Shown: piece by piece, positions 29,291 through 64,000 of the stretch
How the letters are laid out: each line of letters begins with the position of its first letter
Position numbering within the stretch: position 1 is the stretch's first letter
Assembly (NCBI RefSeq): GCF_024502345.1
Contig: NZ_JALDNN010000001.1
DNA length: 64,000 nt
Direction: 5' to 3' (one strand)
Source of the DNA: Escherichia coli
GTDB lineage: Bacteria > Pseudomonadota > Gammaproteobacteria > Enterobacterales > Enterobacteriaceae
Made by a program: the position numbers and the translations under genes
The notes under the pieces: model-generated
What the model was told of the DNA's origin: nothing
The model's database searches: none
What the model saw: the letters and a program-made list of their open reading frames with translations, nothing else

Positions 29291-29440
29291 TGCATGAAGC
29301 TGCCAAATGATGTCAACGTGGCTCATTTAGCAGCTTAACATCATCTTCAGTTATCACCGGCCCTGGAGAGTATCATCCATACGCATTACTTCCTGACAAC
29401 TCATCGCCGGAGAGACGATGAGTTGCAGGATTTCATATGA

Positions 29441-30943
29441 TCAGTCGAGAGCTAACTCAGGTTTATTCGCCATGCGACTGCAATAGTTCTGGTAAATCGC
29501 CATCGCTAACAGCGAGAAGAAGACAGGGCCGCCAATCATCCACAATGTGCTGTCCCAGTCTCCGGCTTCAACCACAGGCTGAATAATGGTGAAGACGTTC
29601 GCAAATGTCACCACCAGAACGACAACCACCGTCGCAATCATTGCCGACATACGCGTATTGAAAATCACAAACGGTCTGTCGAGATCCTGACGTGCTTTAA
29701 AGAATGGGAAAGCCAGCGCGAGGAACAGGTAAGGAAGCGTCATAGACACGTTCGCCATCAGCGTCAGCTTGTTAAAGAACGCCGATGCGGTACCGCCACC
29801 AAACGAAACCAGCAGGATGAAGACAGTAACCAACCCGCACTGCATCCACATGGCGATAGACGGCATCCCCATCGCATTCAGGCGCGTCATCGGTTCCGGC
29901 CACAACGCTTTCGGCGTTCCCTGGATGATGGCTTTCAGCGGTGAATAGCAAAGCGTAAAGAACGCACCGGTATAAGCGAGGAACATCGAAAGTCCGGTAA
30001 TACGCGCAAACCATACGCCCAGCGACAATGACGCTTCAGGAGACAAATGCAGTGCGTTACCCAGCGTCACCCCGAGGCTCTTCATCAGCACATAGGTAAT
30101 ATTGCCGAGGTTAACGGAACCATTACTTAATACCTGCTGCCAGTTTGTGCTGACGCCCCATAAAAATATTGCCAGCGAATAACCGATTGAAATAACAATA
30201 GCGGCAAAAACAATACCTTTGGCAAAGTTCTTTTCTGGATTTTCCGTTTTATCGACCAGACCACCAACCGCTTCAATTCCGCCATAGGCAAAAATAGCAA
30301 ATACCACAAACGATAGCATTGCCAGACCGGACTGATAACCCGGGTTCGGTGATGCAAGGAAATTAATATCCTGCGCGAAATGCCCACCATTTAATAACAA
30401 AATAGTAATGCTTACTAACAGCAATACTAAATTCAGACACATTACTGCAATACCGCCCACCGCAGTAATGCGGGCAATTTTATTAATCCCCTTTGAAGCA
30501 ACGACGGTGACCAGAATCATCCATGCCACTGCCAGCAGACCAACCACCTGCGTAGGCTCCAGTCCGGCAATACGCCAGTGCTGGGTCATGTCGCTACCAT
30601 AGAGGAATGTTGAGAACGGTACCCAAACTTTCGCGGAGGTGCTCACCATCCAGATGATATAAGAGGAAAACCACATAAACGTACCAATGAAGGCAAAACG
30701 TGGTCCGACACTATTATTCATCCAGGAATAGATACCGCCTTCTTCTTTGCGATAAGCAGCTCCCATTTCAGCCATCATTAAGGCGAATGGAATAAAGAAT
30801 AACAATGCAGAAAATATATAAAAGGGAATCGCACTATAACCCATTAAGTAATAAGCCGATGGGCTATTGGCAAATCCAAATACGGAAGTAAAGATCATCA
30901 ATATGAGTCCTATCAGACTCATCTTTTTTATCGTGTGAGGCAT
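29441..30943 (-). CDS. yjeM: YjeM, APC-superfamily amino-acid transporter
   Basis: ORF trimmed to MPHTIKKMSLIGLILMIFTSVFG (500 aa). The translation is polytopic membrane protein. Confidence 0.9.
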   Translation of the reverse strand: MPHTIKKMSLIGLILMIFTSVFGFANSPSAYYLMGYSAIPFYIFSALLFFIPFALMMAEMGAAYRKEEGGIYSWMNNSVGPRFAFIGTFMWFSSYIIWMVSTSAKVWVPFSTFLYGSDMTQHWRIAGLEPTQVVGLLAVAWMILVTVVASKGINKIARITAVGGIAVMCLNLVLLLVSITILLLNGGHFAQDINFLASPNPGYQSGLAMLSFVVFAIFAYGGIEAVGGLVDKTENPEKNFAKGIVFAAIVISIGYSLAIFLWGVSTNWQQVLSNGSVNLGNITYVLMKSLGVTLGNALHLSPEASLSLGVWFARITGLSMFLAYTGAFFTLCYSPLKAIIQGTPKALWPEPMTRLNAMGMPSIAMWMQCGLVTVFILLVSFGGGTASAFFNKLTLMANVSMTLPYLFLALAFPFFKARQDLDRPFVIFNTRMSAMIATVVVVLVVTFANVFTIIQPVVEAGDWDSTLWMIGGPVFFSLLAMAIYQNYCSRMANKPELALD

Positions 30944-51462: not shown

Positions 51463-52038
51463 GTGCAACGTGAAGATGTACTGGGAGAAGCCCTGAAATT
51501 ATTAGAATTACAAGGGATTGCCAACACCACGCTGGAGATGGTTGCTGAACGTGTGGATTATCCACTGGACGAGCTGCGCCGCTTCTGGCCAGACAAAGAG
51601 GCAATCCTCTACGATGCGCTGCGTTATCTTAGCCAACAGATAGATGTCTGGCGTCGTCAGCTGATGCTGGACGAAACGCAAACCGCCGAACAAAAGCTGC
51701 TGGCACGTTATCAGGCGTTATCGGAGTGCGTTAAAAACAACCGCTATCCGGGCTGTCTATTTATCGCTGCCTGTACGTTTTATCCCGATCCTGGCCACCC
51801 TATTCATCAACTGGCCGATCAGCAAAAAAGCGCGGCCTACGATTTCACCCACGAACTGTTAACCACGCTGGAAGTTGACGATCCGGCGATGGTAGCAAAG
51901 CAGATGGAACTGGTGCTGGAAGGATGCCTGAGCCGGATGCTGGTGAATCGTAGCCAGGCGGATGTCGACACTGCACATCGGCTGGCGGAAGATATCCTGC
52001 GCTTCGCCCGCTGCCGCCAGGGTGGCGCATTGACCTGA
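51463..52038 (+). CDS. yjdC: YjdC, TetR-family transcriptional regulator
   Basis: ORF trimmed to the GTG at 51463 ([31 protein letters not shown], 191 aa) with a GGAGG Shine-Dalgarno upstream. Confidence 0.88.
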
Positions 52039-52105
52039 CAGAAACACAGAAAAGAAGCGATTTGCCGCAATCTTAAGCAGTTGAATCGCTTTTACTGAAA
52101 TTAGG

Positions 52106-52134
52106 TTGACGAGATGTGCAGATTACGGTTTAAT
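52106..52134 (+). promoter_or_regulatory. pheU promoter
   Basis: TTGACG (52106-52111), a 17-nt spacer and TTTAAT (52129-52134) are followed by the GC-rich discriminator GCGCCCC immediately before the tRNA. Confidence 0.6.
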
Positions 52135-52144
52135 GCGCCCCGTT

Positions 52145-52220
52145 GCCCGGATAGCTCAGTCGGTAGAGCAGGGGATTGAAAATCCCCGTGTCCTTGGTTC
52201 GATTCCGAGTCCGGGCACCA
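52145..52220 (+). tRNA. pheU: tRNA-Phe (GAA)
   Basis: GCCCGGATAGCTCAGTCGGTAGAGCAGGGGATTGAAAATCCCCGTGTCCTTGGTTCGATTCCGAGTCCGGGCACCA is a 76-nt tRNA with anticodon GAA and an encoded CCA. It lies next to yjdC, as pheU does in K-12. Confidence 0.97.
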
Positions 52221-52231
52221 ATATTCATAAG

Positions 52232-52262
52232 GCCTCGCTGCAAAGCGGGGCTTTTTCCTTTT
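52232..52262 (+). terminator. tRNA-Phe terminator hairpin
   Basis: The stem GCCTCGC/GCGGGGC (one G-U pair) has a TGCAAA loop and is followed by TTTTTCCTTTT. Confidence 0.65.
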
Positions 52263-52390
52263 CTGGCTACGGTAGATTTCTGGTCGTTGCGGCACGTTAT
52301 TTGTTTGCTGGATTTCTCGCCATTTTCGCAGTTGTTCGTTACTTTTAGACACCTCAACATCCTTTGATGTACCTTTTCCTAACCTCACAG

Positions 52391-52417
52391 CTACGGTCTT
52401 TCTACGGTCCTCTACGA
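52391..52417 (+). repeat. Phased direct repeats CTACGGTC / CTACGGTC / CTACGA (10-11 bp register)
   Basis: Copies start at 52391, 52402 and 52412. A fourth copy, CTACGGTA, lies at 52267-52274. Confidence 0.6.
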
Positions 52418-52456
52418 TTCCTTTCTCTCAGAGCATTCATAATAAAGTAGAAAATA

Positions 52457-52560
52457 CGGGGAAAACGGGGGAATTATCATTTCGCCCTAATCCGCAGGTC
52501 TTAACGTGATTTTGTCGCGGGGAATAAGGTGGGGAAATCCCCAATAGCAAGCGGGGAAAT
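52457..52560 (+). repeat. Cluster of five direct CGGGGAA(A/T)-type repeats
   Basis: The copies are CGGGGAAAA at 52457, CGGGGGAATT at 52466, CGGGGAATA at 52518, TGGGGAAAT at 52530 (followed by CCCC) and CGGGGAAAT at 52552. An inverted copy AATCCCCCG lies at 52659-52667. Confidence 0.6.
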
Positions 52561-53071
52561 CTGGCAGCATACCCCCTCCACCATTCACATGGGGATCTTC
52601 ACCAGTCCGTCCACCTACAACAAGCTCTTCTTGCCCTTTCACTTCTTACCGTTTTCAGAATCCCCCGTTCTCCACGCCATCATAAAATGATTTATCCGTA
52701 AGCTTAACGTAATGGACTGTTGAACCTGAGTGTCCGCTGTGAGCGAAAAGCGGAACTTCTCACATAGGTAATGAAGCGTTTCCTAACGTCAGGGTGTACT
52801 AATCAACGAAGAGCAGGTCAGAGGACTCGAACCGCTTTCCTCTTCCATCTACGTAGAATTCCAAGAATTTATGTGCTTTCCAGTTACAATTTAGCCATGC
52901 TAAGTTAGAAAAAGCATTGAGTACCTTAGGATTGTATCGATGATACTCTAAGGATCTTGGAGGCTTGTGAGGCGTAAGGTTCAAAGCCAATAGTTTATTA
53001 ATAGTCACACAAGTGGCTCTATTTTTCGCCTACAAACCTATATTTTTCATACAAATAAAAGAAGTGTATTT

Positions 53072-54490
53072 ATGAATACTCAGCAAATTAAGGTTGGCAG
53101 TGTACCTGAAATTATTGAGCTATTACCAAACTCTAGCGAGCAGGCTGATTCTCATCCTTTCATCCTATCGGCAAACAGTGCATGGGGTGAACAGGGAGCA
53201 GAAATATCAATAGAGAGATTACGCCAAAATATCGAGCCTTGGCTAACAGCTCTCTTCCAATCCGAACATTTAAATTTATTGATAGGTGCGGGTTTAAGCA
53301 CGTCTATTCAAATATCGGCTACAGATTCACCTCCAGCTGGAATGGGTTGGATCAGCGATCTAGCCGTATGTAAAAGTGAAATAGATGCATTTTCTACTCT
53401 GGCTGCCAAAGCTGCAGGTCGCGATAACGGAAATATAGAAGATCAAATTAGAGCTATTAATGAACTTATTAAAGGGCTTGAAATTCTGACAGTGTTGAAT
53501 ACCCCTCAACCTGAAAATCCTCCAGCTCCTCATGCTGCTTATAGAAATCTAAAAACGGATTTAGAAATACTCAAGGGAGAGCTTTCTCGCTGCCTAGGTG
53601 AGTTTTCAAGATCTGTGAGTGCCGGAGAATACTTGATTAAAACTGCTGAACCAAAGCGTAAAGAGGAAACTTTCAACTATCTAGTTAGTTTCTTGATGAG
53701 CTTTGCAAGTAGGACCGCTACTCGCGATAGGTTGCATATTTTTACAACAAACTATGATCGCATTATTGAAGTAGGTGCTGAGCTTGCTGGTTTGAGACTT
53801 ATAGATCGCTTTGTAGGAAGTATCGCTCCAGTGTTTCGATCTTCAAGATTGGAGGTTGATTATCACTATAATCCTCCAGGAATTCGTGGCGAACCAAGAT
53901 ATTTAGAAGGCGTAGCGCGTTTTACTAAGCTTCATGGATCCCTTGATTGGCATGAACAAAATAGCGCGATTAGGCGCTTTGGTTTACCTTTTGGAGCACG
54001 TTCTGTTGAACCTTTTTTAGAAGCTGAAGGCCATCAAAGCAACAGCTTTGAACAACTTATGATTTACCCTAACTCAGTAAAAGATAGAGAAACTGCCGAG
54101 TACCCTTATGTTGAGCTATTTCGAGATCTAGCCGCAGCAACTAGCCGCCCAAATAGCACATTAGTCACCTATGGCTATAGCTTTGGTGATGAGCATATCA
54201 ACAGGGTAATTGAAGACATGCTTACAGTGCCTTCGACTCATGTAGTCATAATTGCCTTCGGAGATCCGCTTGGAAGAATCATAAATTTCATTAATAAGAG
54301 TGGAAGAAAAGCACAGATCACCCTATTAATGGGAGACCATTTAGGAGACCTCAAGACTTTAGTTGATAACTATTTACCTAAACCAGCTATTGATAAAGCA
54401 TCAATAAAAATGACTGAATTGCTTAAGCAAAGAGGATTTATCCAGCCCAAAGAATTAGGTAATTCAACTGGCTCCGAGGTATCACAATGA
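53072..54490 (+). CDS. SIR2-like (SIR2_2-type) NADase-family protein, first gene of a SIR2-HerA pair
   Basis: 472-aa ORF with the motifs LLIGAGLS (GAGxS Rossmann loop), FTTNYDRIIE, FTKLHGSLDW and YGYSFGDEHIN. These are characteristic of prokaryotic defence-associated SIR2 domains. Its stop overlaps the next start (ATGA at 54487-54490). Confidence 0.8.
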   Translation: MNTQQIKVGSVPEIIELLPNSSEQADSHPFILSANSAWGEQGAEISIERLRQNIEPWLTALFQSEHLNLLIGAGLSTSIQISATDSPPAGMGWISDLAVCKSEIDAFSTLAAKAAGRDNGNIEDQIRAINELIKGLEILTVLNTPQPENPPAPHAAYRNLKTDLEILKGELSRCLGEFSRSVSAGEYLIKTAEPKRKEETFNYLVSFLMSFASRTATRDRLHIFTTNYDRIIEVGAELAGLRLIDRFVGSIAPVFRSSRLEVDYHYNPPGIRGEPRYLEGVARFTKLHGSLDWHEQNSAIRRFGLPFGARSVEPFLEAEGHQSNSFEQLMIYPNSVKDRETAEYPYVELFRDLAAATSRPNSTLVTYGYSFGDEHINRVIEDMLTVPSTHVVIIAFGDPLGRIINFINKSGRKAQITLLMGDHLGDLKTLVDNYLPKPAIDKASIKMTELLKQRGFIQPKELGNSTGSEVSQ

Positions 54491-56520
54491 GTTACTTACC
54501 AATAGAAAGATTAGAACAATTAAGAATTGGATCTGTTGGATTTGTATCACCTAATGAAATTAGAGTTTCTTTAGAGATTGACTCCCCTGATTCAGTGTCA
54601 CTTCAAGGCGGTTCCCCCCGCAATTTTCCTCGAATAAATAGTTATGTACTGATCAGTAGCGATGATGGATTTCTCGTCGGACAGGTTGAATGGATTGCCG
54701 TAGAACACTCTCCATACCCCAAAAGAAGAGGCTTACAAGATTTTGGCTTGATAGATCTTCCTTTTCCACTTAAAAAGCTCAGTATCAATCCCGTTGGTAC
54801 TTTGAGAGTCGATAGAAAAAACGAAGATTACAAGTTCACAAGAGGAACAGATGCTTTTCCCTCGGTTGGTGACTCCGTGCTCCTGCCTACTGACCGGCAA
54901 TTAAAATCAATAATAGAATCAGGTGACAATAGAAGAGTAAAAATAGGGGACAGCCCCCTAGCTAACAATGCGGAAATAAAAGTGGACCCTGATAGGCTTT
55001 TTGGACGACATTTAGCTGTTTTGGGCAATACAGGTAGTGGTAAATCATGCTCGGTTGCGGGGTTAATTCAATGGTCTTTAGATGCTGTTTTACAACAGGG
55101 ACAGATTCCAAATGCTCGGTTCATAATACTTGATCCAAATGGAGAATACAGTAGGGCATTCGGCCCAGAATCAAAATACAAGGGTAAGCTATTACGTGTA
55201 GAAGCTAACACTGGTGCTGAAGAGATAGATCTTAAAGTTCCGTCATGGTTATGGAATAGCTCTGAGTGGGGTGCTTTCACTCAAGCGAGTTCAAAAGTTC
55301 AACTTCCTTTACTACGCCGAGCTTTGAGGGCGATGAGAAATGATGTTTTATCAGAAGATGATGTGACAATCCAAGCGAAACACTTCTGCGGTATCCTACT
55401 CGTATCCATACGACAATTATCAAGCCAAGGCCAGATATATGTGAATGGCGGCCATGCCAAAGGTTTCGTTGATAGTTTAACGTCTTGGAATAATAGCCTG
55501 TCCACATTAAACGACAAAATCGATAACAAACCTTTCGATAATCTAATAAACACGATGAATGTGTATCTTTCCTCTCGTATAGGAATAAAATGGCCTGAAA
55601 AACCTGAAGTTTCAGATACTGATCAGTTGATTAATGAATTAAAAAATGCATATGAAACGCTTGGAGGTGATGAACAAGGACTTCTTCCAAAAAGTGAAGA
55701 TTCGCCTATTCGTTTTAAAGGGGATGATTTTGTCGCATACCTAGAAGCTCTAGCTCAAGAGACAGGCACAGAGCAATTCGTTGAATTCCTTTTGACTCGT
55801 ATTCGAACAATGCTAGGTGACACCCGTATAAGTGCAGTAACAAATGATTCGGAACAGCCTATCAGTTTAACTAATTGGTTAGACACTTTTCTCGGTAGAG
55901 ATGGACAAGGTTCCATAACTGTTATCGATTTATCGCTAGTCCCTAATGAAATAATACATTTGGTAACTGCTGTAATTTCCAGAGTAACTTTTGAAGCATT
56001 ACAACGTTATCGAAGACTTAAGGGGAAACCACTACCAACAGTTATGGTTGCAGAAGAAGCGCATACATTTATTAAACGCTACAAAGAAGATAGTGAGGGT
56101 CAGTCAGTCTCTGACGTATGCTGCAAAGTGTTTGAAAAGATCGCACGTGAAGGCAGGAAATTTGGGTTAGGTCTTGTAGTTTCTTCCCAACGACCCTCAG
56201 AGCTATCTCCGACTGTGTTATCTCAATGTAATACTTTTTTGTTGCACAGGATTAGTAATGATAGAGATCAAGAGCAAGTCCATAGACTTGTTCCCGATAA
56301 CATGAGGGGGTTGTTGAGGGAGTTGCCATCGCTACCATCTCGGCATGCCATTCTACTAGGATGGGCTTCTGAACTTCCGGTTTTAGTTAGAATGAAAGAG
56401 CTTACTGAAAAACAAAGACCACAATCTGACGATCCCGATTTTTGGGATGTGTGGTCTAACACTACAGAAGAGCCTCGCGAAGTTAATTGGCAACCAATAG
56501 CTGATGATTGGCAAAGTTAA
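54487..56520 (+). CDS. HerA/FtsK-like (DUF87-type) ATPase, second gene of a SIR2-HerA pair
   Basis: 677-aa ORF. It has an N-terminal barrel-like segment (RIGSVGFVSPNEIRVSLE), Walker A LAVLGNTGSGKS and Walker B TVMVAEEAH. It also carries VVSSQRPSELSPTVLSQCNTFLLHRISNDRDQ, typical of HerA-clade ATPases. Confidence 0.85.
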   Translation: MSYLPIERLEQLRIGSVGFVSPNEIRVSLEIDSPDSVSLQGGSPRNFPRINSYVLISSDDGFLVGQVEWIAVEHSPYPKRRGLQDFGLIDLPFPLKKLSINPVGTLRVDRKNEDYKFTRGTDAFPSVGDSVLLPTDRQLKSIIESGDNRRVKIGDSPLANNAEIKVDPDRLFGRHLAVLGNTGSGKSCSVAGLIQWSLDAVLQQGQIPNARFIILDPNGEYSRAFGPESKYKGKLLRVEANTGAEEIDLKVPSWLWNSSEWGAFTQASSKVQLPLLRRALRAMRNDVLSEDDVTIQAKHFCGILLVSIRQLSSQGQIYVNGGHAKGFVDSLTSWNNSLSTLNDKIDNKPFDNLINTMNVYLSSRIGIKWPEKPEVSDTDQLINELKNAYETLGGDEQGLLPKSEDSPIRFKGDDFVAYLEALAQETGTEQFVEFLLTRIRTMLGDTRISAVTNDSEQPISLTNWLDTFLGRDGQGSITVIDLSLVPNEIIHLVTAVISRVTFEALQRYRRLKGKPLPTVMVAEEAHTFIKRYKEDSEGQSVSDVCCKVFEKIAREGRKFGLGLVVSSQRPSELSPTVLSQCNTFLLHRISNDRDQEQVHRLVPDNMRGLLRELPSLPSRHAILLGWASELPVLVRMKELTEKQRPQSDDPDFWDVWSNTTEEPREVNWQPIADDWQS

Positions 56521-56626
56521 TTAACTTAACTAATTTTTAGTAGTGTTATAAGTAGTGGCTTATATCTGACATGACAGTTTAGGTTAGTAGTTTCAATCTA
56601 ACAGTAAGTGTCCACGGTGACGTTTT

Positions 56627-56665
56627 CATACTCAAATCTCCTGAAATGTGGGAGATTTGAGTATG
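56627..56665. other. Perfect 15-bp-stem hairpin in the convergent intergenic region
   Basis: CATACTCAAATCTCC - TGAAATGTG - GGAGATTTGAGTATG. There is no flanking U-run on either strand. Confidence 0.6.
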
Positions 56666-56941
56666 GTTGTCCCTTATGAGCGAGGAGCGGAAGTTCTGCT
56701 TTAAGTGTATCAAACCCTCCAGCAAAGATGTTCTTGAATGTAATGCCATAATTTCCCTAACATTCCAGCACAAATCAATTAACTCTCAGTCCATAGTGTA
56801 TTTTACTTAAATTAAAATCAAATACTCTAGGAATTAAAATAACAAGATCACTTGCGATTATGCTATTTTAAATTAATATTTTTGTTTTTACTGGGGAACC
56901 TTCAAAACACGGAGCCAGATTTCTTCGTAGCTACCCTGTTG

Positions 56942-57766
56942 CTAGGGTTTCAAGTATTCCCCTAAAGGAAAGAAATTTTTTGACAACTTTTGGGATTCAG
57001 CAATTTTAACCAAATAAATATAGAATCCCAACAGAGCACTGTTCTCGCTTTCCCCCCTCGAATAGTGAACATGCCCAGGCACCTTCCGGATGAGGAAACC
57101 ATTATTTTTTACCAAATAATACCCTCTATCTAAAATTGTAATTACATCAGGCATATCATCTAAATCGATATTATTTCCAGTCATGTAATTAAACAGCGAA
57201 TCTCGTAAGGTACTTTCCTCTGGACCTTGGAAGGCTAGTAGTAAGAATGGTGTTTTTCTCAAGGTTGCACACATCCCTGAGATTTCCTCTACTAATTGCA
57301 CTGTATTTTGGGGAATATTTTCTTTCATAAAATAACCATCGTCAATACCGATTGGATTGATTCTTACCAAACCTTTTGACCTAACGCAAGCATCTAAGGT
57401 TGTCTTAAGGTTTGAAGCTCCTTCGGTCATTGAGCCAGTGTTTAATGAAGATTTACATTCAATTAACGCTAAAGCTGAATCGACAGGGACCATACACTGA
57501 TCTTTATCATAACTAAGTTTTAAAGAATGTTTCGAGTATATGATAATATCCATCTGACTTGAGAGATTATCCTTAGAGTCAAAAACCTGTCCTGATGTAA
57601 TATCTAAATTACTAGGGAGATTTGCTTTTAAAAATTCCCTTATTACAATTTCTCTAGCACTTCCTTTGCTACTCCCGTTCGTCGTTATGGATGACAAATT
57701 AAATGCTGAAACCAAAGATGCCGTATGGTTTTTTAAGTGTTTCTGGATTAATTTCATAAAGCTCAT
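56942..57766 (-). CDS. Hypothetical protein with an N-terminal PD-(D/E)xK-like nuclease motif (reminiscent of DUF6602, from memory)
   Basis: 274-aa ORF in AT-rich DNA. It contains SKGSAREIVIREFLKANLP...SGQVFDSKDNLSSQMDIIIY...ALALIECKSSL, giving E39/E44, D73 and E103-x-K105 in the order expected for restriction-endonuclease-fold enzymes. The C-terminal half has no motif I recognise. Confidence 0.6.
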   Translation of the reverse strand: MSFMKLIQKHLKNHTASLVSAFNLSSITTNGSSKGSAREIVIREFLKANLPSNLDITSGQVFDSKDNLSSQMDIIIYSKHSLKLSYDKDQCMVPVDSALALIECKSSLNTGSMTEGASNLKTTLDACVRSKGLVRINPIGIDDGYFMKENIPQNTVQLVEEISGMCATLRKTPFLLLAFQGPEESTLRDSLFNYMTGNNIDLDDMPDVITILDRGYYLVKNNGFLIRKVPGHVHYSRGESENSALLGFYIYLVKIAESQKLSKNFFPLGEYLKP

Positions 57767-58194
57767 TCCATTTTAATTTATCTACATCGCTTAAAGGCAA
57801 ATGATGCCACCGGCTACCAATTAAAAATTATCTCAACCTGAGAGATTTTTCCAGACTCCAAACGAAAATAAAAAACTACTCGTCACGTCCCTCCTGGCAC
57901 ATAGCCGACACCAAAACCAGCAACATATGGACAACGGTCCCTGCCCTGATGGCAGGTAATTGTATCAGACTTAAACACATATTATTTCTGTGAACTCCCC
58001 CCAACGGCAGTCCTTTCCTCTGAAGACCAGAACCAGACCGTAAAGCCTGCTCTTTCTGCATTTCCCGTATTAATTCATACCATGTGGCACCAGCATTCCC
58101 TTCGCCACACCAGAAAATCAATTCCCCAATAAAAAAGTGCCGTGCCGGGGATGGGTCAACCCTGACGTTCTTTACACCAGTCACAGGAGGTTAT

Positions 58195-59379
58195 ATGTCC
58201 ACCCCCAAACGCTTCCGTTTTACTAATCAGCTCATTAAATCCCTGCCCCCTAACACATCCGATGCACGCAGTACCGATGCCGAATACAGCGACACCGAGA
58301 TTTCCGGCCTCAAGTGTCTGGTCAGCAGAAGAGAAGGTCGTAAAAAGTTTTTGCTACGCTACCTTTATCATGGACGAAAACGCGCCATCGCCATTGGTCA
58401 CTGGCCTGAAGTGGACGTCAATCTTGCTCGTCAGATTGCCATAGAACACAAACGTTCCCTTGCCACCGGCACTGACCCTAAGCAGGAGCGTGAAAACAAG
58501 AGAATGGAGCTGACGTTCGATGAACTCTTTAATCAGCATTATCTGCCATGGGCAAAATCCGCTAAACGCAGTTGGGGAAAGGATGTTCAGCGCTACCGCG
58601 ATCATATCCGTCCCGCCATTGGTCAGAGGCTGCTGAGCGATATCACACCAGCGAGCATTCTGCGCCTTCAGCAGACGTTAAGTACTTCCCTGTCAGCAGC
58701 TACCTGTAACCGTGTCATCGTACTCATTAAAGCCGTCTTTACATGGGCCGGAAGGCAAAGCATGACCTCTGTCCATCCGGCAAGGGTGGTACAGCTTCTC
58801 AGGGAGAACAACGCCCGACAGCGCTATTTCACCGAGGACGAAATTCGTCGTATTTTTCTCTCCGCCGATAACGATACCAGCCCCGTCGCGGCCCGCTATG
58901 TCAAACTGTTGTTACTGACCGGCCTTCGTCGTGATGAGCTGCGTCTGGCTAAGTGGGAGCATGTTGACCCGGTTAAACGCACCCTGTGGCTCCCGGAAAC
59001 CAAGAATGGCTATGGGCGGATTGTTCACCTTAACTCACTGGCGATGGACGTAATCAGAACGCTGCCAACGCAGCGGGGAAATCCGTGGTTGTTTATCGGT
59101 AAAAAACAAGGAATGCCGCTGAATAACCCCGTTAAAGCCTTTCAGCGTATCGTTCGTCGGGCGGGAATTTTCGACCAGGAAGTGTGTATTCATACCTGCC
59201 GCCATTCGGTTGCCGCCCTCATCGTGTCCTACGGCGGAACACTGTATGACGTTCAGGCTCAACTGGGGCACCGCAGCAGTCAGTCTTCACAACGTTATGC
59301 GCATCTTCACCCTCAGCGCTTACAAAACACCAGTCAGTTACTGGCGGAAAGGATAACGGCTCAGCTACCGTCCTTGTGA
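58195..59379 (+). CDS. Tyrosine-type site-specific integrase (int1)
   Basis: ORF 58084..59379 trimmed to the ATG at 58195, preceded by AGGAGG (MSTPKRFRFTNQLIKSLPPN..., 394 aa). It has an N-terminal arm-binding-like segment (IAIGHWPEVDVNLARQIA). The catalytic signature is TGLRRDEL, HTCRHS, LGHRS and RYAH. Confidence 0.88.
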   Translation: MSTPKRFRFTNQLIKSLPPNTSDARSTDAEYSDTEISGLKCLVSRREGRKKFLLRYLYHGRKRAIAIGHWPEVDVNLARQIAIEHKRSLATGTDPKQERENKRMELTFDELFNQHYLPWAKSAKRSWGKDVQRYRDHIRPAIGQRLLSDITPASILRLQQTLSTSLSAATCNRVIVLIKAVFTWAGRQSMTSVHPARVVQLLRENNARQRYFTEDEIRRIFLSADNDTSPVAARYVKLLLLTGLRRDELRLAKWEHVDPVKRTLWLPETKNGYGRIVHLNSLAMDVIRTLPTQRGNPWLFIGKKQGMPLNNPVKAFQRIVRRAGIFDQEVCIHTCRHSVAALIVSYGGTLYDVQAQLGHRSSQSSQRYAHLHPQRLQNTSQLLAERITAQLPSL

Positions 59380-59388
59380 TAACAGAAA

Positions 59389-59419
59389 AGCAGAGGCAAG
59401 TGCCCCTGCTTTTTTTTTA
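59389..59419. terminator. Hairpin terminator shared by int1 (+) and the 118-aa gene (-)
   Basis: The stem AGCAGAGG/CCCCTGCT (one mismatch) is followed by nine T on the plus strand, with a weaker UUUCUGU on the minus strand. Confidence 0.65.
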
Positions 59420-59434
59420 CTGTTCAGCCATCAG

Positions 59435-59791
59435 TCAGAACGGGATGGCCCCATATTCTTCATCCGGCACCCGGTTATCATCAAATCTGTTATAGAGTTC
59501 ACGAGCACACTCGCGCGCGTCTTTAATAGACATACGAGGGAACCTGCCGAGGGGTTCATAATAGCAGGCCCCTTCAAGCGTATAACGAGCCAGGAATTTA
59601 ATCTCACCGTTGGCAATGACGGCCCGGAGCGCAGGCTCGCTGCCATCGAAGATTTCACGAGAAATGCCGTGATAAAGGCACTCCGCCAGTGTGTTAACCA
59701 GAGCGTAATCATTGAATGAGGTTTTTTCTTCATTTTCGCTGCTGATAGCGTGAGGAAAACCGTCATAGTACTGGTCTGATTCAAAAATCAT
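59435..59791 (-). CDS. Small protein carrying a stand-alone integrase N-terminal (DUF4102-like arm-binding) domain
   Basis: 118-aa ORF with an AAGGTG Shine-Dalgarno 5-10 nt upstream of the ATG. GEIKFLARYTLEGACYYEPLGRFPRMSIKDARECARELYNRF aligns by eye with int2 GRIKFIVRKSIRGKNIYVAVGGYPEISIKDAREHAFKIIQEL. Confidence 0.7.
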   Translation of the reverse strand: MIFESDQYYDGFPHAISSENEEKTSFNDYALVNTLAECLYHGISREIFDGSEPALRAVIANGEIKFLARYTLEGACYYEPLGRFPRMSIKDARECARELYNRFDDNRVPDEEYGAIPF

Positions 59792-59840
59792 ACATCACCT
59801 TCTATTGGTTGTTATTCAGTCAAAATGGTTTTATTCAGGG

Positions 59841-61769
59841 TTAAAATTCGGTCATCACATTGCATTTCAGAAACGCTTTTTTGACCTGGTAGTAAGACTG
59901 CGCCATCGTCTTCAGCGCTCTTTTTTTATAGTGTCCGGCACTTTCGCCAAGCAGATAACCGGAACGCTCTAACGGTCTGGCCACATCAACGGTCTTAAGT
60001 CCCTTTTCAGAACAGAGCTTTTCAAACACCGATTCATAAATCAGGAAGTCGCCGGTTTTGTAATGGACGAATCCCCACATATCTCCCGGGCATCGGGCAT
60101 GTTCGTCACGCAGGGTGATAAAGTGCCTGCTGCTTTTTGTCACCAGCGTCAGCTGAAGCTCCTCCAGCATGTTACGCACCGGGTTATACTGATTCTGGTT
60201 ATCATCCAGCCAGCGTCGTGCAGCGGACATAACGGATTCAGCCACCGCATCGCTTTCGAAAGGTAAAAGGCCATATTTCAGCGCCTTCTCTCCTGCCAGC
60301 CATACCAGCGCAAATCTTTTCAGTCCGCGCCGCTGAACGCGGGTAATATCACGCCCCTCATCCCTCAGGGCCTCTTCCAGTGCGTTACAGCAATCATCTG
60401 TCTGTTCCTGGAGCCAGGATGAAAACTCTGCGTAGGTGCGAAGACCGCCAGCCGTATTTTTCCCGGATAACAGTTTGCCGATAAATGCAGGCCCGGCATG
60501 ACCATAAGCCTCTGCCAGCCCCGTCTTCAGTGCATCTGCACGGGCACGTGTTTCTGATACCGGTTCATCCGGTTTTTGAGCATCCTCAGGCAACAGTTCC
60601 ATACTGATGGCCCTGTGCTCCTGCCCTCCCTGTAACACGGCTTTCTGTTCAGCCAGCTTTTCGGAGATTGACATCTCACCGGTGGAGAGAATAAACATGC
60701 GCCATTTAAACGGCTCATCTGCCGTCAGGCCACGGTTCAGGCGCTCTTTTGCCGTACCTGACGTAATGTTGTAAAGCAGTGAGGAAAGTTGCTTATGATT
60801 ACTCGCACCCAGTTCATCGACGCAGGCGACCAGACCGGAATAGTCAGCGAGAAGGCGCTCCATCGCGTTAGGCGTGGTATTCCAGCGAATAATATTTACA
60901 TTCCCCCCACTACCCGGCTCGCTGCCATCACCATGGACCGATGCAGCCAGCATCAGGAGAAGCGTTTTACCGGTGGTGGATACGCCGTGAAAATGAAACA
61001 TGCCCACATCCATACCGGCAGGAACCAGAAGCATCGAAGCAAAGGACGCACTCAGTGCAAAGGTCTGCGCCCAGCCATGGACATTTTCCCGGATGAGGTT
61101 AATCCACTCCTCCAGGGCCCCACCTTTGTGCAGTCCGGGACGCACGCGGAATCCCGGCAGTAGATAATCAAACCCGGTCAGAGAGGTCACAACGGGCTCA
61201 TGACCATGTAAAAAGGCCATATCCTCCGAAACGAATCCCATCGCATCTGCCATCAGATAGACAGGCAGCGGTAAACTCCGGCAGCGCTGAAGAAAACGGT
61301 CAAAAAGGGCAAACTGCTGTGGAGAGGAGCCAACACAAAATCCACGATCTGCCAGTTTGCCTACTACCTGAGCACCGCTCTGAACAATATCCTCAAAGCG
61401 TACCAGGGCCTTAACATACTTACCCAGCCCGTTACCGGTCATCAGGCTGATCCCAAGACCGGACTCCTTATCTTTTCCACAAAACAGGGCGACAGGCACA
61501 ACTGGCGTGGTGCAAACCTGCACAGGTTTCTGTCCACCGATGTAGAAAAGGCCATTAGCCGTATTCACATAATGCCGTGGCAGCCCATCACCAATACCGA
61601 GTGAAGCGATATCATCTTCACCGACCTCAGTGTTTTCAGCACGCCTGATAATTGCTTCCGACATTTTGTTGAAATTTTTATCGCGGTCAGCAAAAGCGCG
61701 AATACGCTTAATCCCGGAAACCTTAGGAACATTAGTTGTCACTTTTTTATTCATGTGTATTACCATCAA
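59841..61769 (-). CDS. DUF927-like P-loop helicase / replication initiator of a mobile element (start codon uncertain)
   Basis: 642-aa ORF. Its N-terminal region (NGLFYIGGQKPVQVCTTPVVPVALFCGKDKESGLGISL...) resembles DUF927 as I recall it. Walker A is HGVSTTGKT and Walker B is LVACVDELG. The alternative start MNKKVTT lies 5 codons in. Confidence 0.7.
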   Translation of the reverse strand: MMVIHMNKKVTTNVPKVSGIKRIRAFADRDKNFNKMSEAIIRRAENTEVGEDDIASLGIGDGLPRHYVNTANGLFYIGGQKPVQVCTTPVVPVALFCGKDKESGLGISLMTGNGLGKYVKALVRFEDIVQSGAQVVGKLADRGFCVGSSPQQFALFDRFLQRCRSLPLPVYLMADAMGFVSEDMAFLHGHEPVVTSLTGFDYLLPGFRVRPGLHKGGALEEWINLIRENVHGWAQTFALSASFASMLLVPAGMDVGMFHFHGVSTTGKTLLLMLAASVHGDGSEPGSGGNVNIIRWNTTPNAMERLLADYSGLVACVDELGASNHKQLSSLLYNITSGTAKERLNRGLTADEPFKWRMFILSTGEMSISEKLAEQKAVLQGGQEHRAISMELLPEDAQKPDEPVSETRARADALKTGLAEAYGHAGPAFIGKLLSGKNTAGGLRTYAEFSSWLQEQTDDCCNALEEALRDEGRDITRVQRRGLKRFALVWLAGEKALKYGLLPFESDAVAESVMSAARRWLDDNQNQYNPVRNMLEELQLTLVTKSSRHFITLRDEHARCPGDMWGFVHYKTGDFLIYESVFEKLCSEKGLKTVDVARPLERSGYLLGESAGHYKKRALKTMAQSYYQVKKAFLKCNVMTEF

Positions 61770-61838
61770 ATTACGCCACCGTCAGAAAACGGGTGCATCA
61801 GAACCATAGTTAAAAACCATACCGTTGAGTGAAGGTTG

Positions 61839-63251
61839 TTACCCCATCGCCCGGTTAACGACTTCGTGGTAACGCGCCGGGGAAGCGTGCAAGTAAAGCT
61901 CCGTTACTTTGATAGTGCTGTGACCCAATAAGTCTTTGACGGTGTGAATGTCGGCCCCGCTCTCAATGAGCTTTGTCGCAAAGGTATGACGCATCTCATG
62001 GATGGTGAACGGTGGAATACCCGCAGCCTCACAAAGTCGTTTTTGCAGGCGACGCGGCTCAGCAACCGGATTGTCGGTTCCCTTGCCCGGAAATACCCAG
62101 CCTTCATCACCCAGATGCTGACGCTGTTCTGTCAGAAGAACGAAAGCCTTATCACATACCGGTACACGGCGTAGTTTGCCGTTTTTGGTATGGCGAAGGG
62201 TGATAACCTTGCGGCTCCAGTCCACATCTTCAAGACGAAGGTGACGGGTTTCCCCCAGACGCAGCCCCGTCAGGGCAAGGAACATGAGAAGAGCAAGGGC
62301 TTCATGATCGGGTTTACCATTACGCCAGCGCTCACAGACGTCCATCCAGCGCTGAAGCTGGGAGTCATCCATGGCACGGCGATCTGACGTCACTTCAGGC
62401 AGCGCTTTGATATAAAGCGCCGGAGAGCGGCTGATGTATCCCATGCGTATAGCCCAGGTAAACACCGCTTTAATGAGCGCCAGATGGCGGTTGCGGGTGG
62501 CAGGCTTGAGATCGAGATTATGCAGATAGCTCAGAATATCTGCCTCCGTCATACCTGCCAGCTTTTTGTCACCGAGAAGAGGGCGCAGGTATTTACGGAT
62601 CTTAGAAAGGTCGGTGTTAGCTGAACGCTTAACGCCCGTGCTGAGTACGCTTTTCTCATACTCATCCACAAGCTCATTAAACGTCATTTTACTGTGAGTA
62701 AGAAAACGCTCACCGTAAGCCTCAACGGCGGTCTTGAGCTCCTGAATTATTTTAAAGGCATGCTCCCTTGCATCTTTAATTGAAATTTCCGGGTAGCCTC
62801 CTACGGCAACGTAGATATTCTTTCCGCGAATACTTTTGCGGACAATAAATTTAATGCGACCTGATGGATAGAATATTGCCTTAAGTCCGGTTAACTTCTT
62901 ATCGCTGGTCTCGATTGTTTGTGCAGCTTGTACTGCACGGATTTTATATTCATCAAAAAGGGCTTTAGTAAAAACACCTCCAGTATTTTTAGGTGCAACC
63001 CCTGGATATTCTACAACATCAGATACTCCAGAGTCGGAATACCCCTGAGCTTCCACATCTACATTGAAGGAATTTTTATGAGCAGCTGTGATGCTCTTTT
63101 CATCCAGCACTTGCGTTATTTTATTTAAAGGGTAATTAACTTTCATAATATGTACATGGTCCTCTGAAAATTCAGATGATAATGAGTAATTTAATATGTC
63201 GGCCAACAATGGGATAAGCTTATTTATTCGTGGCATCACTTTCAAGCCCAT
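61839..63251 (-). CDS. Tyrosine-type site-specific integrase (int2), with a long N-terminal extension
   Basis: 470-aa ORF. It has an arm-binding segment (VAVGGYPEISIKDAREHA) and a catalytic signature of TGLRLGETRHL, HEMRHTFAT, LLGHSTIKVTELYLH. The start codon is uncertain because no clear Shine-Dalgarno is visible. Confidence 0.85.
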   Translation of the reverse strand: MGLKVMPRINKLIPLLADILNYSLSSEFSEDHVHIMKVNYPLNKITQVLDEKSITAAHKNSFNVDVEAQGYSDSGVSDVVEYPGVAPKNTGGVFTKALFDEYKIRAVQAAQTIETSDKKLTGLKAIFYPSGRIKFIVRKSIRGKNIYVAVGGYPEISIKDAREHAFKIIQELKTAVEAYGERFLTHSKMTFNELVDEYEKSVLSTGVKRSANTDLSKIRKYLRPLLGDKKLAGMTEADILSYLHNLDLKPATRNRHLALIKAVFTWAIRMGYISRSPALYIKALPEVTSDRRAMDDSQLQRWMDVCERWRNGKPDHEALALLMFLALTGLRLGETRHLRLEDVDWSRKVITLRHTKNGKLRRVPVCDKAFVLLTEQRQHLGDEGWVFPGKGTDNPVAEPRRLQKRLCEAAGIPPFTIHEMRHTFATKLIESGADIHTVKDLLGHSTIKVTELYLHASPARYHEVVNRAMG

Positions 63252-63317
63252 GAAAAATCAGCTCTTACATGCCCATTGACATTTAATACTCAAGTCAGAA
63301 AGACCATGATGATTCAT

Positions 63318-63331
63318 CAGGAGTACTCCTG
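63318..63331. promoter_or_regulatory. Perfect 14-bp palindrome upstream of int2
   Basis: CAGGAGTACTCCTG lies 67-80 bp upstream of the annotated int2 start. It is a candidate operator. Confidence 0.3.
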
Positions 63332-63423
63332 CTCAGGGAAAAGGGAAAATAGCGTTAAACCCTATAAAAAAATTGTGTTCCGGATGCATCGCCCAAAGTA
63401 AGTCAACTTTTGAGGCCCTGAAG

Positions 63424-64000
63424 GGCTTTGTTGAATAAATCAGATTTCGGGTAAGTCTCCCCCGTAGCGGGTTGTGTTTTCAGGCAATACGCACGCTTTC
63501 AGGCATACCTGCTTTCGTCATTTTGTTCAGCGCTCGTACCAGGGCCATAGCCTCCGCAACCTGACCATCGTAGTCACGCAGCGTCAGTGAACCCCCGAAC
63601 AGCTGTTTTACCCGGTACATCGCCGTTTCCGCTATCGAGCGACGGTTGTAATCTGTTGTCCATTTCCACCGCGCATTACGCTGATTAGCCACTGCACGGT
63701 TACGGTCTGCATATTCACCGGGCCAGTAACCCGCACCTTTTCGGGGAGGGATAAGCGCGCTGATTTTCTTACGCCGCAGTTCATCGTGACAGAGCCGGGT
63801 GTCGTAAGCGCCGTCTGCCGATGCTGCCCTGATTTTTCTGTGAGTCTGCCGGATAAGACCCGGGAAGGCTTCTGAGTCCGTCACATTGTTCAGCGACAGG
63901 TCAGCGCAGATGATTTCATGTGTTTTACTGTCAACGGCGAGATGCAGCTTACGCCAGATACGGCGGCGTTCCTGGCCATGCTTTTTGACTTTCCACTCGC
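63424..64000. mobile_element. IS903-like element (IS5 family), truncated by the window edge
   Basis: The terminal inverted repeat GGCTTTGTTGAATAAATC starts at 63424, followed by the transposase C-terminus on the minus strand. Confidence 0.85.
63480..64000 (-). CDS. IS903-family DDE transposase (C-terminal part; N-terminus outside the window)
   Basis: The frame stays open to the window edge. It translates ...RRRIWRKLHLAVDSKTHEIICADLSLNNVTDSEAFPGLIRQTHRKIRAASADGAYDTRLCHDELRRKKISALIPPRKGAGYW...AGMPESVRIA, matching IS903/IS102 transposase as I recall it. Confidence 0.85.
   Translation of the reverse strand, partial: EWKVKKHGQERRRIWRKLHLAVDSKTHEIICADLSLNNVTDSEAFPGLIRQTHRKIRAASADGAYDTRLCHDELRRKKISALIPPRKGAGYWPGEYADRNRAVANQRNARWKWTTDYNRRSIAETAMYRVKQLFGGSLTLRDYDGQVAEAMALVRALNKMTKAGMPESVRIA

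What the first reader, a model, noticed from the sequence alone, without database searches (positions are those of the whole stretch)
52221..64000. Backbone synteny stops exactly at pheU: a mosaic island replaces the K-12 pheU-cadC junction
From aidB to pheU the order and sequences follow K-12 as I recall them. Immediately after the tRNA 3' CCA (52220) nothing is K-12-like, although I expected cadC.

The following 11.8 kb has at least four compositional or functional blocks:
- A repeat-bearing leader.
- The AT-rich defence cassette.
- int1.
- The int2-helicase module and IS903.

pheU and pheV are well-known island integration hot spots. The right junction (attR) is not in the window.
Basis: partly seen in the sequence, partly recalled or inferred. 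Interest (0 to 1): 0.6.

Follow-up and report, generated by a model that had tools for sequence, protein, structure and literature searches.

The report
Anti-phage gene island at pheU

Summary
The window matches K-12 without rearrangement from aidB to 9 bases past pheU (52229). Nothing after that point matches K-12.

Positions 52221-64000 are the left 11.8 kb of a roughly 21 kb island. The same island family occurs at pheU or pheV in about 2.5-3.6% of complete E. coli genomes, and its integrase is 92-99% identical in at least seven other enterobacterial genera. About 69% of E. coli genomes have the empty K-12-type junction.

Intact relatives end in an exact 50-base repeat of the tRNA 3' part, followed by yjdQ and cadC.

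The island has these parts:
- a conserved 540-bp non-coding leader with two repeat motifs;
- a variable cargo slot, here holding SIR2-HerA and a NucC-like DUF6602 nuclease (dCTP deaminase, Eleos and Septu-like systems in relatives);
- integrase 1;
- an exchangeable replication module made of a small Arm-domain protein and a Cch-like DUF927 helicase;
- integrase 2;
- an IS903 copy that cuts off the rest.

The locus is hotspot #38 of Hochhauser et al. 2023. This is a new member of a known kind. The conserved two-integrase core and the unknown transfer route are the only mildly unusual points. The right junction in this strain cannot be seen.

The parts
52145..52220 (+). pheU, tRNA-Phe(GAA), the integration target
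   Evidence: ARAGORN and Rfam tRNA at 68 bits. dicD/yjdC lies upstream, as in K-12.
52172..52221 (+). 50-base att identity block: tRNA positions 28-76 plus one base. It is the left copy of the direct repeat that bounds intact islands.
   Evidence: In L004, L009 and L010 the same 50 bases recur exactly at the right island end and are followed by K-12 sequence. No second copy is present in the window.
52229..52254 (+). Terminator-like hairpin supplied by the island for the rebuilt tRNA gene
   Evidence: Terminator scan found 11 pairs followed by a T-run. K-12 has a different hairpin at the same place.
52221..52760 (.). Conserved non-coding leader (att-proximal arm). CTACG[GA]T sits at 52267, 52391, 52402 and 52412. 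GGGGAA sits at 52458, 52468, 52519, 52531 and 52553.
   Evidence: Aligned across 16 family loci from several genera. The first ~260 bp are near-invariant and the second half comes in two forms. The motif counts are reached only by stretches overlapping the leader itself. No Rfam match.
52761..57886 (.). Variable cargo slot, GC 0.39
   Evidence: The conserved flanks end at 52482-52758 on the left and resume at 57887-57946 on the right in every relative. The slot holds different genes in each relative.
53072..54490 (+). SIR2-family NADase gene of a SIR2-HerA anti-phage system
   Evidence: PADLOC SIR2 model PDLC04079, 2.7e-154. Pfam SIR2_2. Distant from the solved Nezha SIR2 8j4u, 2.5e-21.
54487..56520 (+). 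HerA ATPase/helicase gene; its start overlaps the SIR2 stop by 4 bases
   Evidence: PADLOC HerA model PDLC04098, 2e-252. Pfam DUF87. Matches solved HerA chains 8wiv and 9c1m.
56611..56703 (.). About 90-bp scar matching the upstream region and first 19 bases of a 'site-specific integrase' gene of another island. It contains a perfect 15-bp inverted repeat (56627-56641 / 56651-56665).
   Evidence: 92-96% identical to this spot in 744 E. coli genomes. Inverted repeat I11.
56942..57766 (-). DUF6602 gene; the N-terminal part of the protein is a PD-(D/E)xK nuclease resembling NucC
   Evidence: Pfam DUF6602, 6.9e-21. PADLOC PD_DExK 5.8e-27 and NucC 7.5e-14, N-terminal 120 residues only. PDB NucC 7zgv, 9e-7. 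Absent from all 5426 complete E. coli genomes at megablast level. Always beside this SIR2-HerA in the 8 contigs shown of 16 carrying it.
57887..58194 (+). Conserved region upstream of int1; right flank of the slot and presumed int1 promoter
   Evidence: Alignment of 16 loci and BLAST borders.
58195..59379 (+). int1, a 394-aa tyrosine recombinase with Arm, central and catalytic domains
   Evidence: Pfam Phage_integrase 4.3e-23, Arm-DNA-bind_3 2.9e-13, Phage_int_M. The start at 58195 follows a GGAGG and matches RefSeq annotation of relatives. The R...HxxR...H...Y residues are visible in the alignment.
59435..59791 (-). Stand-alone 118-aa Arm-type DNA-binding domain protein
   Evidence: 40% identical to the int2 arm domain, E 5e-9. 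Pfam Arm-DNA-bind_3 1e-4, below the curated cut-off. The reading frame is intact in 12 loci, including a 38%-identical allele. dN/dS is 0.2-0.9 and the C-terminal IPF is conserved.
59841..61769 (-). DUF927 helicase, related to Cch of SCCmec, with a C-terminal Cch-type HTH; presumed replication initiator
   Evidence: Pfam DUF927 7.3e-34 and HTH_56 2.4e-4. NCBIfam SCCmec Cch1 2.2e-22. PHROG primase/helicase 1e-41. Only distant relatives (<31% identity) in phages and plasmids, mostly non-mobilizable ones.
61839..63251 (-). int2, a second tyrosine recombinase. This is the longest reading frame (470 aa); relatives are annotated at 423-435 aa.
   Evidence: Pfam Phage_integrase 5.5e-32. 31% identical to int1. 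Intact here, but interrupted by ISEc52 in the two closest genomes.
63252..63421 (.). Remaining 170 bp of the int2 / backbone-operon divergent intergenic region, cut by IS903
   Evidence: Relatives continue for about 450-600 bp to the hypA operon. Matches to PSJ-22 and others stop at 63422.
63422..64000 (-). IS903-family insertion sequence, partial; it runs off the window
   Evidence: 94.4% identical to the annotated IS903B copies in L001 and L003. Pfam DDE_Tnp_1 6e-16 on 63480-63884. The terminal repeat GGCTTTGTTGAATAAATC starts at about 63424.

Best explanation
Positions 52221-64000 are the left end of an integrative genomic island that entered the 3' part of the tRNA-Phe gene pheU by site-specific recombination.

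How the integration works (inferred from family anatomy):
- A tyrosine recombinase exchanges strands within a 50-base block (52172-52221) that the island shares with the tRNA.
- The tRNA is rebuilt from island DNA and receives a new terminator.
- In intact relatives, the displaced native 3' part marks the right end, just before yjdQ and cadC.

The island belongs to a conserved family with this order: tRNA-Phe, 540-bp leader, cargo slot, int1 (rightward), then Arm protein, DUF927 helicase and int2 (all leftward), then a backbone operon. The operon carries more defence genes: JukA, a WYL regulator, HEC-05/DUF262 and type I restriction-modification.

The slot between the leader and the int1 promoter carries a different anti-phage module in almost every lineage. 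Here it holds:
- SIR2-HerA, an abortive-infection system that depletes NAD+;
- a stand-alone NucC-like DUF6602 nuclease.

Cargo is most likely swapped by homologous recombination between the conserved flanks, because the breakpoints are graded rather than fixed. The Arm/DUF927 pair is swapped in the same way between int1 and int2.

Inferred but not shown: after excision the DUF927 helicase replicates the circle, as Cch does in SCCmec and Rep does in SaPIs. How the element moves between cells is unknown. In this strain an IS903 copy has landed 171 bp upstream of int2 and separates it from the rest of the island.
For: Shown directly:
- The K-12 match stops at 52229.
- 69% of E. coli genomes have the empty junction.
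- The family is present in 133-193 of 5426 genomes, at both pheU and pheV.
- An exact 50-base direct repeat followed by K-12 sequence closes three intact relatives; yjdQ and cadC are seen where the locus reaches that far.
- The same gene order, with int1 at 92-99% aa identity, occurs in Pseudocitrobacter, Enterobacter, Kluyvera, Buttiauxella, Citrobacter and Pseudescherichia. Mixta carries int1 on a short contig, and Erwinia carries an 86%-identical int1 fragment at tRNA-Phe.
- Slot borders and their conserved flanks are defined.
- Slot contents are mostly known or candidate defence systems.
- An 85%-identical SIR2-HerA cassette sits in a P2-like prophage hot spot.
- The Arm/DUF927 module is allelic: 38% and 47% aa identity in L011, while leader through int1 is 99.45% identical.
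- Both integrases keep their catalytic residues.
- Cargo GC is 0.39 against 0.52 for the backbone.

From the literature:
- The locus is hotspot #38 in PMC10121019.
- The SIR2-HerA mechanism is described in PMC11514289, PMC11472057 and PMC13434337.
Against: - The right junction, attR and cadC of this strain are outside the window and cannot be checked.
- No unambiguous excised circle was found. An exact attP pattern gave nothing in the viral or metagenome collections. One 1.8-kb low-coverage gut contig (L049) joins an island right end to the leader, but it could equally be a tandem junction.
- No relaxase, secretion, capsid or packaging genes were recognised in the family backbone, so mobility rests on distribution alone.
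- Which of the two integrases acts at tRNA-Phe is unknown.
- IS903 here, and ISEc52, IS903B and IS1 in the closest relatives, suggest this copy may be decaying.
Confidence: 0.85

Rival explanations
1. The region is two unrelated islands that piled up one after the other at pheU. One is an int1 island carrying the defence cargo. The other is an int2-helicase island. The two integrases would then be an accident of accretion.
For: Tandem accretion at tRNA-Phe does happen. In metagenome contig L045 this leader is preceded by only the last 23 bases of the tRNA and by a different element with a MobC/NikA-like gene. L075 shows a 44-base variant. int1 and int2 are only 31% identical and point in opposite directions.
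Against: There is no internal copy of the tRNA 3' end between the two integrases, allowing up to 3 mismatches. The order int1 / Arm / DUF927 / int2 / backbone operon is the same in every family member examined, across several genera and at both pheU and pheV.
Confidence: 0.07
2. The island is a phage satellite of the PICI or P4 kind. It would excise, replicate with its DUF927 primase/helicase-type protein, and be packaged by a helper phage.
For: The integrases have the P4-type domain layout. DUF927 is one of the Pfam families grouped as the PICI 'Primase' in PMC10111431. A SaPI-like record (PT1028) carries a distant DUF927 relative. Five backbone proteins hit PHROG families of unknown function. 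Satellites are known carriers of defence hot spots (PMC9122126).
Against: No AlpA, capsid-remodelling, terminase small subunit, Psu/Sid/Delta or cos-type functions were recognised in the backbone by Pfam or PHROGs. The leader is absent from the viral contig collection. At about 21-27 kb it is larger than typical PICIs and P4.
Confidence: 0.2
3. The island is an integrative mobilizable element that hitch-hikes on a conjugative plasmid or ICE, as the DUF927-carrying MGIVchHai6 islands do with IncC plasmids.
For: MGIVchHai6-type islands combine int, xis and a DUF927 gene and are mobilised by IncA/C plasmids (PMC4958241). Near-identical copies in at least seven other genera fit broad-host-range conjugation. 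Hochhauser et al. list such elements among defence carriers.
Against: No relaxase, MobI-like or other mobilisation gene was detected in the backbone. An oriT cannot be recognised with these tools.
Confidence: 0.2
4. The segment is ancestral E. coli DNA that K-12 and its relatives lost, not an insertion.
For: K-12 keeps an integrase remnant (yjdQ) next to pheU, so deletions have occurred at this locus.
Against: - 69% of genomes have the empty junction and only about 3% carry the family.
- Intact copies are bounded by a 50-base tRNA repeat, and yjdQ lies outside that repeat.
- The same element also sits at pheV and in other genera at 92-99% identity.
- The composition is foreign.
Confidence: 0.02

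Closest known systems
tRNA-Phe (pheU/pheV) genomic islands of E. coli with P4-type integrases, such as GI-pheV and LEE/SHI-type islands; defence hotspot #38 (yjdC-cadC) and the pheV (yqgA) hotspot of Hochhauser et al. 2023
   Same: Same target genes. Integration into the tRNA 3' part with a duplicated tRNA segment. A tyrosine integrase with an Arm domain. Sporadic distribution, mosaic content and defence cargo.
   Different: The integrase lies 0.8-9 kb from the tRNA, behind a conserved 540-bp leader and a cargo slot, rather than directly beside it. There is a second integrase, and no virulence genes. Both integrases are only remotely similar to the CP4-57-type model (NCBIfam PRK09692, 23-28 bits against a cut-off of 434).
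Defence hot spots inside P2-like prophages and P4-like satellites (Rousset et al. 2022, PMC9122126)
   Same: A fixed slot in a mobile element, flanked by conserved sequence, holds a different anti-phage system in each isolate. An 85%-identical SIR2-HerA cassette sits in a P2-like hot spot next to ogr.
   Different: The carrier has no recognisable phage or P4 genes. The slot lies between the att arm and an integrase promoter.
SCCmec (Cch helicase plus recombinases), SaPI/PICI replication modules, and MGIVchHai6-type islands (int, xis, DUF927)
   Same: A chromosomal island that pairs site-specific recombinases with a DUF927/Cch-type self-loading helicase. The helicase module is allelic, as Rep-ori modules are in SaPIs (established knowledge).
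   Different: The recombinases are tyrosine rather than serine enzymes. A stand-alone Arm-domain protein co-varies with the helicase. No AcaCD boxes or mobI were looked for or seen. Similarity to Cch is low (79 bits against a cut-off of 700).
SIR2-HerA (Nezha) anti-phage systems
   Same: [quoted passage not shown]
   Different: Diverged from the solved Nezha proteins. Which of the E. coli subtypes I-III of PMC13434337 it belongs to could not be determined, because no sequences are held.

Membership tests
tRNA-integrated genomic island (integrase-mediated) | Starts at the 3' part of a tRNA gene, which stays intact | tested here: met
   tRNA-Phe at 52145-52220 is complete. K-12 homology ends at 52229.
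tRNA-integrated genomic island (integrase-mediated) | Encodes a tyrosine integrase with catalytic residues | tested here: met
   int1 and int2 match Pfam Phage_integrase at 4e-23 and 5.5e-32. The R, HxxR, H and Y residues are visible.
tRNA-integrated genomic island (integrase-mediated) | Direct repeat of the tRNA 3' part at the far end, followed by the native flank | not testable with these tools
   The window ends inside IS903 and holds no second copy. Three intact relatives carry an exact 50-base repeat followed by K-12 flank sequence (yjdQ and cadC in MARGA_3).
tRNA-integrated genomic island (integrase-mediated) | Sporadic distribution, with empty sites in related strains | tested here: met
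   Empty junction in 3750 of 5426 genomes. The family is in 133-193 genomes.
tRNA-integrated genomic island (integrase-mediated) | Observed excision or a circular form | tested here: inconclusive
   Exact attP pattern searches found nothing. One contig, L049, has a right-end/core/leader junction that could be attP or a tandem junction.
SIR2-HerA defence system | Adjacent SIR2-domain and HerA-ATPase genes in one operon | tested here: met
   53072-54490 and 54487-56520 overlap by 4 bases. PADLOC gives 2.7e-154 and 2e-252.
SIR2-HerA defence system | Protects against phage by NAD+ depletion | not testable with these tools
   Known for other subtypes only (PMC11514289, PMC13434337).
P4-like satellite | P4 core genes (alpha primase-helicase, psu, sid, delta, cos) next to the integrase | tested here: not met
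   Pfam and PHROG scans of window genes and of the family backbone in L010 found none. DUF927 takes the place of alpha.
PICI | int, alpA, pri-rep and packaging/interference genes in that order | tested here: not met
   A DUF927 'primase-class' gene is present. However, there is no Phage_AlpA hit (the 79-aa backbone protein hits HTH_DeoR only) and no packaging genes.
ICE / integrative mobilizable element | Relaxase and/or type IV secretion genes, or an oriT | tested here: inconclusive
   No relaxase or secretion genes were found in the backbone. An oriT cannot be recognised with these tools.
IS903 (IS5 family) | Terminal inverted repeat and a DDE transposase closely similar to IS903 | tested here: met
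   63422-64000 is 94.4% identical to annotated IS903B and matches DDE_Tnp_1. Only one end is in the window.
Integron | IntI-type integrase lacking an Arm domain, attI, and attC-bounded cassettes | tested here: not met
   int1 has an Arm domain. Slot borders are graded, with no shared repeat at cargo ends.

The most novel reading that the evidence does not exclude
The conserved core (two divergent Arm-type tyrosine recombinases around a Cch-like DUF927 helicase, plus a stand-alone Arm-domain protein that co-varies with the helicase) may define an undescribed class of replicative integrative elements in Enterobacterales. Such elements would specialise in carrying anti-phage genes and would move by a route that is neither classical conjugation nor known satellite packaging. 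In this reading the Arm-only protein acts as origin-binding or excision-directing factor, and the two integrases have separate jobs.
Probability: 0.25. Interest if true: 0.55.

Novelty: new member of a known kind. Interest (0 to 1): 0.3.

Why it matters
Practical value for this genome:
- It explains why the annotation departs from K-12 at pheU.
- It flags a SIR2-HerA system and an uncharacterised NucC-like nuclease as likely phage-resistance determinants.
- It warns that cadCBA may be missing downstream, as in the two closest strains.

Wider value is modest. The family is a compact, widely shared carrier whose cargo slot could be mined for new defence genes. Several slot genes in relatives have no match in PADLOC. 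Its two-integrase plus helicase core and its unknown transfer route are open questions. The general phenomenon, a defence island at a tRNA hot spot, is well established.

Tried and rejected
- Second copy of the pheU 3' end: searched in the window and in the closest genome. None found, so the right junction cannot be placed here.
- Source contig beyond 64000: looked up the exact DUF6602 protein. The longest contig found was a 16.5-kb metagenome contig without IS903. It shows how the island continues elsewhere, not in this strain.
- yjdQ, the K-12 integrase remnant: shows no detectable similarity to int1 or int2.
- Leader repeats as DUF927 origin iterons: considered unlikely. The same leader accompanies helicase alleles only 47% identical. 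The motifs are also absent from the attR-proximal arm.
- Rfam search of 52000-64000: found only the tRNA.
- Promoter scan: no better than shuffled sequence.
- Integron-like capture: rejected, since there is no attC-like repeat and the borders are graded.
- Excised circles: exact attP pattern searches in the viral and metagenome collections were negative. A looser search gave one ambiguous contig.
- Assigning the SIR2-HerA to types I-III of PMC13434337: failed for lack of sequences.
- Literature searches for a named family with this gene set: found none.


Full report
**Observation**

ARAGORN places tRNA-Phe(GAA) at 52145-52220 on the + strand. Window 1-52229 aligns to K-12 MG1655 4362544-4415338 (reverse complement) in three collinear pieces at about 98.7% identity. 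The single interruption is 29291-29477, where 187 bp replace K-12 yjeN-yjeO. Sensitive BLAST finds no K-12 match after 52229. The break is real and lies 9 bases after the CCA end.

GC content by block:

| Block | GC |
|---|---|
| Backbone | 0.52 |
| Leader | 0.47 |
| Cargo | 0.39 |
| int1 | 0.53 |
| DUF927 | 0.52 |
| int2 | 0.48 |
| IS903 | 0.54 |

**Gene content**

After a 540-bp non-coding leader come these genes:
- A SIR2 gene (53072-54490) and an overlapping HerA gene (54487-56520). They match PADLOC SIR2 and HerA subfamily models at 2.7e-154 and 2e-252.
- On the opposite strand, a 274-aa DUF6602 protein (56942-57766). Its N-terminal 120 residues resemble the NucC nuclease (PADLOC; PDB 7zgv at 9e-7).
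- int1 (58195-59379, + strand).
- On the - strand: a 118-aa protein consisting only of an Arm-type DNA-binding domain (59435-59791), a DUF927 helicase with a Cch-type HTH (59841-61769), and int2 (61839-63251).

int1 and int2 are 31% identical, and both keep the R / HxxR / H / Y catalytic residues. The Arm-only protein is 40% identical to the arm domain of int2.

From 63422 to the window end, the sequence is 94.4% identical to annotated IS903B.

**Distribution in E. coli**

Counts among 5426 complete genomes:

| Feature | Genomes |
|---|---|
| Uninterrupted K-12-type pheU junction | 3750 (69%) |
| Leader | 193 |
| int1-to-int2 module | 133 (68 near full length) |
| This exact SIR2-HerA cargo | 2 (fM51a, cS33a) |
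| DUF6602 gene | 0 |

The family sits at pheU (next to dicD) in some genomes and at pheV (next to yqgA) in others.

Hochhauser et al. 2023 already list yjdC-cadC / tRNA-Phe as defence hotspot #38, with 53 of 915 genomes occupied. They list the pheV (yqgA) site as a separate hotspot, with 141 of 484 occupied. pheU and pheV are classic island sites (PMC11537424).

**The whole island in intact relatives**

In PSJ-22, ET151 and MARGA_3 the element runs as follows:
- pheU, leader, slot, int1;
- then Arm, DUF927 and int2 on the opposite strand;
- then an operon of small unknown genes, DUF2787, LRAT and a small HTH protein;
- then JukA (DUF3944), a WYL regulator, HEC-05 (DUF262), hsdM, hsdS, hsdR and one more unknown gene. 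MARGA_3 has IS26-associated rearrangements in this stretch.

The island ends in an exact 50-base repeat of tRNA positions 28-76 plus one base. This corresponds to window 52172-52221. The K-12 sequence follows immediately. MARGA_3 shows the yjdQ integrase remnant and cadC there, and PSJ-22 shows the yjdQ remnant. A core that starts in the anticodon stem-loop fits the known habit of this integrase class of crossing over in the anticodon loop (established knowledge; Williams 2002, cited in PMC10121019).

The island also supplies a terminator-like hairpin at 52229-52254.

In the two closest genomes, an IS1 sits where the right end should be. The hsdS 3' part through ghoT, including cadCBA, dtpC and lysU, is gone. 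In those genomes IS903B also replaces 56915-57794 (the DUF6602 gene), and ISEc52 interrupts int2.

**Spread beyond E. coli**

int1 at 92-99% amino-acid identity occurs at tRNA-Phe in Pseudocitrobacter, Enterobacter, Kluyvera, Buttiauxella, Citrobacter and Pseudescherichia, with the same flanking gene order and near-identical backbone proteins. Mixta carries int1 on a short contig, and Erwinia carries an 86%-identical int1 fragment. These genera are far more diverged in core genes (established knowledge). This level of identity is therefore strong evidence of recent horizontal movement.

**The cargo slot**

Alignment of 16 loci gives these borders:
- The leader is conserved for about 540 bp. 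The first ~260 bp are near-invariant, and the rest comes in two forms.
- Conservation resumes 250-310 bp upstream of the int1 start.
- In window coordinates the slot is about 52761-57886.

Slot contents elsewhere:
- dCTP deaminase;
- Eleos (LeoA and LeoB);
- a different SIR2-HerA plus a PtuA-like PDC-M01 pair;
- PDC-M01 alone;
- HEC-07-like and PDC-S31 candidates;
- restriction endonucleases;
- a few non-defence or unknown genes.

The breakpoints are graded rather than fixed, and no repeat bounds the cargo. Exchange by homologous recombination between the flanks is therefore the simplest mechanism. This is an inference.

The cargo here is itself composite:
- An 85%-identical SIR2-HerA cassette, tightly trimmed to 53030-56572, lies in a P2-like prophage hot spot next to ogr in other E. 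coli.
- Just downstream of HerA, 56611-56703 is a scar of the upstream region of an integrase gene from yet another island. It occurs in 744 genomes.

**The replication module**

Metagenome contig L011 is 99.45% identical to the window from pheU through int1. Its Arm and DUF927 proteins, however, are only 38% and 47% identical. int2 is again similar, at 93% nucleotide and 82% amino-acid identity. At least three such alleles exist.

The Arm-only reading frame is intact in all of them. Its dN/dS is 0.2-0.9 and its C-terminal IPF is conserved. It is therefore a real gene that travels with the helicase.

DUF927 has only distant relatives (<31% identity) in phages and plasmids, mostly non-mobilizable ones, and in a SaPI-like record. 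It also matches the SCCmec Cch model. This supports a role as replication initiator of the excised circle, which is an inference.

The leader repeats do not co-vary with the helicase allele. They are therefore more likely integrase arm sites than origin iterons. This is also an inference.

**Mobility evidence and its limits**

No relaxase, secretion, capsid or packaging genes were recognised. The leader is absent from the viral contig collection.

A search of metagenome contigs for the leader start found 38 loci, classified:
- 30 show the full tRNA 5' half upstream, as expected for attL.
- 3 have too little upstream sequence to classify, but show the tRNA as far as it goes.
- 1 (L047) carries a tRNA-Phe sequence variant.
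- 1 (L049; 1.8 kb, low coverage) joins a divergent island right end to the core and leader. This is either an excised circle or a tandem junction.
- 3 show other elements upstream, with shorter tRNA fragments of 23 or 44 bases. In L045 that element has a MobC/NikA-like gene. These look like tandem accretion.

Searches give the details.

**Verdict**

The region is the IS-truncated left end of a tRNA-Phe island at a catalogued defence hot spot. It carries a known defence system (SIR2-HerA) and one uncharacterised nuclease.

It is a new member of a known kind. The family's conserved two-integrase / Cch-like helicase / Arm-only core, and its unknown transfer route, are the only features that go beyond the expected.

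Noticed in passing
window 56942-57766 (- strand): A stand-alone DUF6602 protein with a NucC-like nuclease N-terminus and no cyclic-nucleotide signalling partner nearby. It is rare: 20 clusters at 51% identity or more, from Pseudomonas, Shewanella and Motilimonas. In P. aeruginosa it lies beside an integrase, a helicase and a restriction-modification system. It is a possible single-gene defence candidate.
   Followed up: partly
window 56611-56703: A roughly 90-bp fragment with a perfect 15-bp inverted repeat. It is 92-96% identical to the upstream region and first bases of a truncated 'site-specific integrase' gene found in 744 E. coli genomes. It looks like a recombination scar from another island.
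   Followed up: partly
window 29291-29477: The only break in K-12 collinearity upstream of pheU. Here 187 bp replace the 742-bp K-12 segment that contains yjeN and yjeO.
   Followed up: no
window 59435-59791; L011, L021, L027: The Arm-only protein keeps an acidic tail ending in IPF in alleles that are only 38% identical. It always changes together with the DUF927 allele, which hints at a direct partnership with the helicase.
   Followed up: partly
L001 and L003 (strains cS33a, fM51a): The two closest genomes have lost cadCBA, dtpC, lysU and ghoT through an IS1-associated deletion from the island's hsdS into ghoS. Loss of cad is a known adaptive change in Shigella and enteroinvasive E. coli.
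   Followed up: no
L049 (1.8-kb human gut metagenome contig): The island right end, the 50-base core and the leader are joined in one contig. This is either an excised circular form or two family members in tandem.
   Followed up: partly
L045 1-4780 and L075: The leader is preceded by only 23 or 44 bases of the tRNA 3' end and by other elements. One of these carries a MobC/NikA-like mobilisation gene. Different islands with different crossover points appear to stack at tRNA-Phe.
   Followed up: partly
L039 19896-21092 (strain AREA_C483): An extra 398-aa unknown gene lies between int2 and the backbone operon. This suggests a second variable spot in the family, at the place where IS903 is inserted in the window.
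   Followed up: no
L010 25018-28892 and equivalents: The constant right half of the family carries JukA, a WYL regulator and HEC-05 (DUF262) ahead of a type I restriction-modification system. The whole element is therefore a stack of defence genes.
   Followed up: partly
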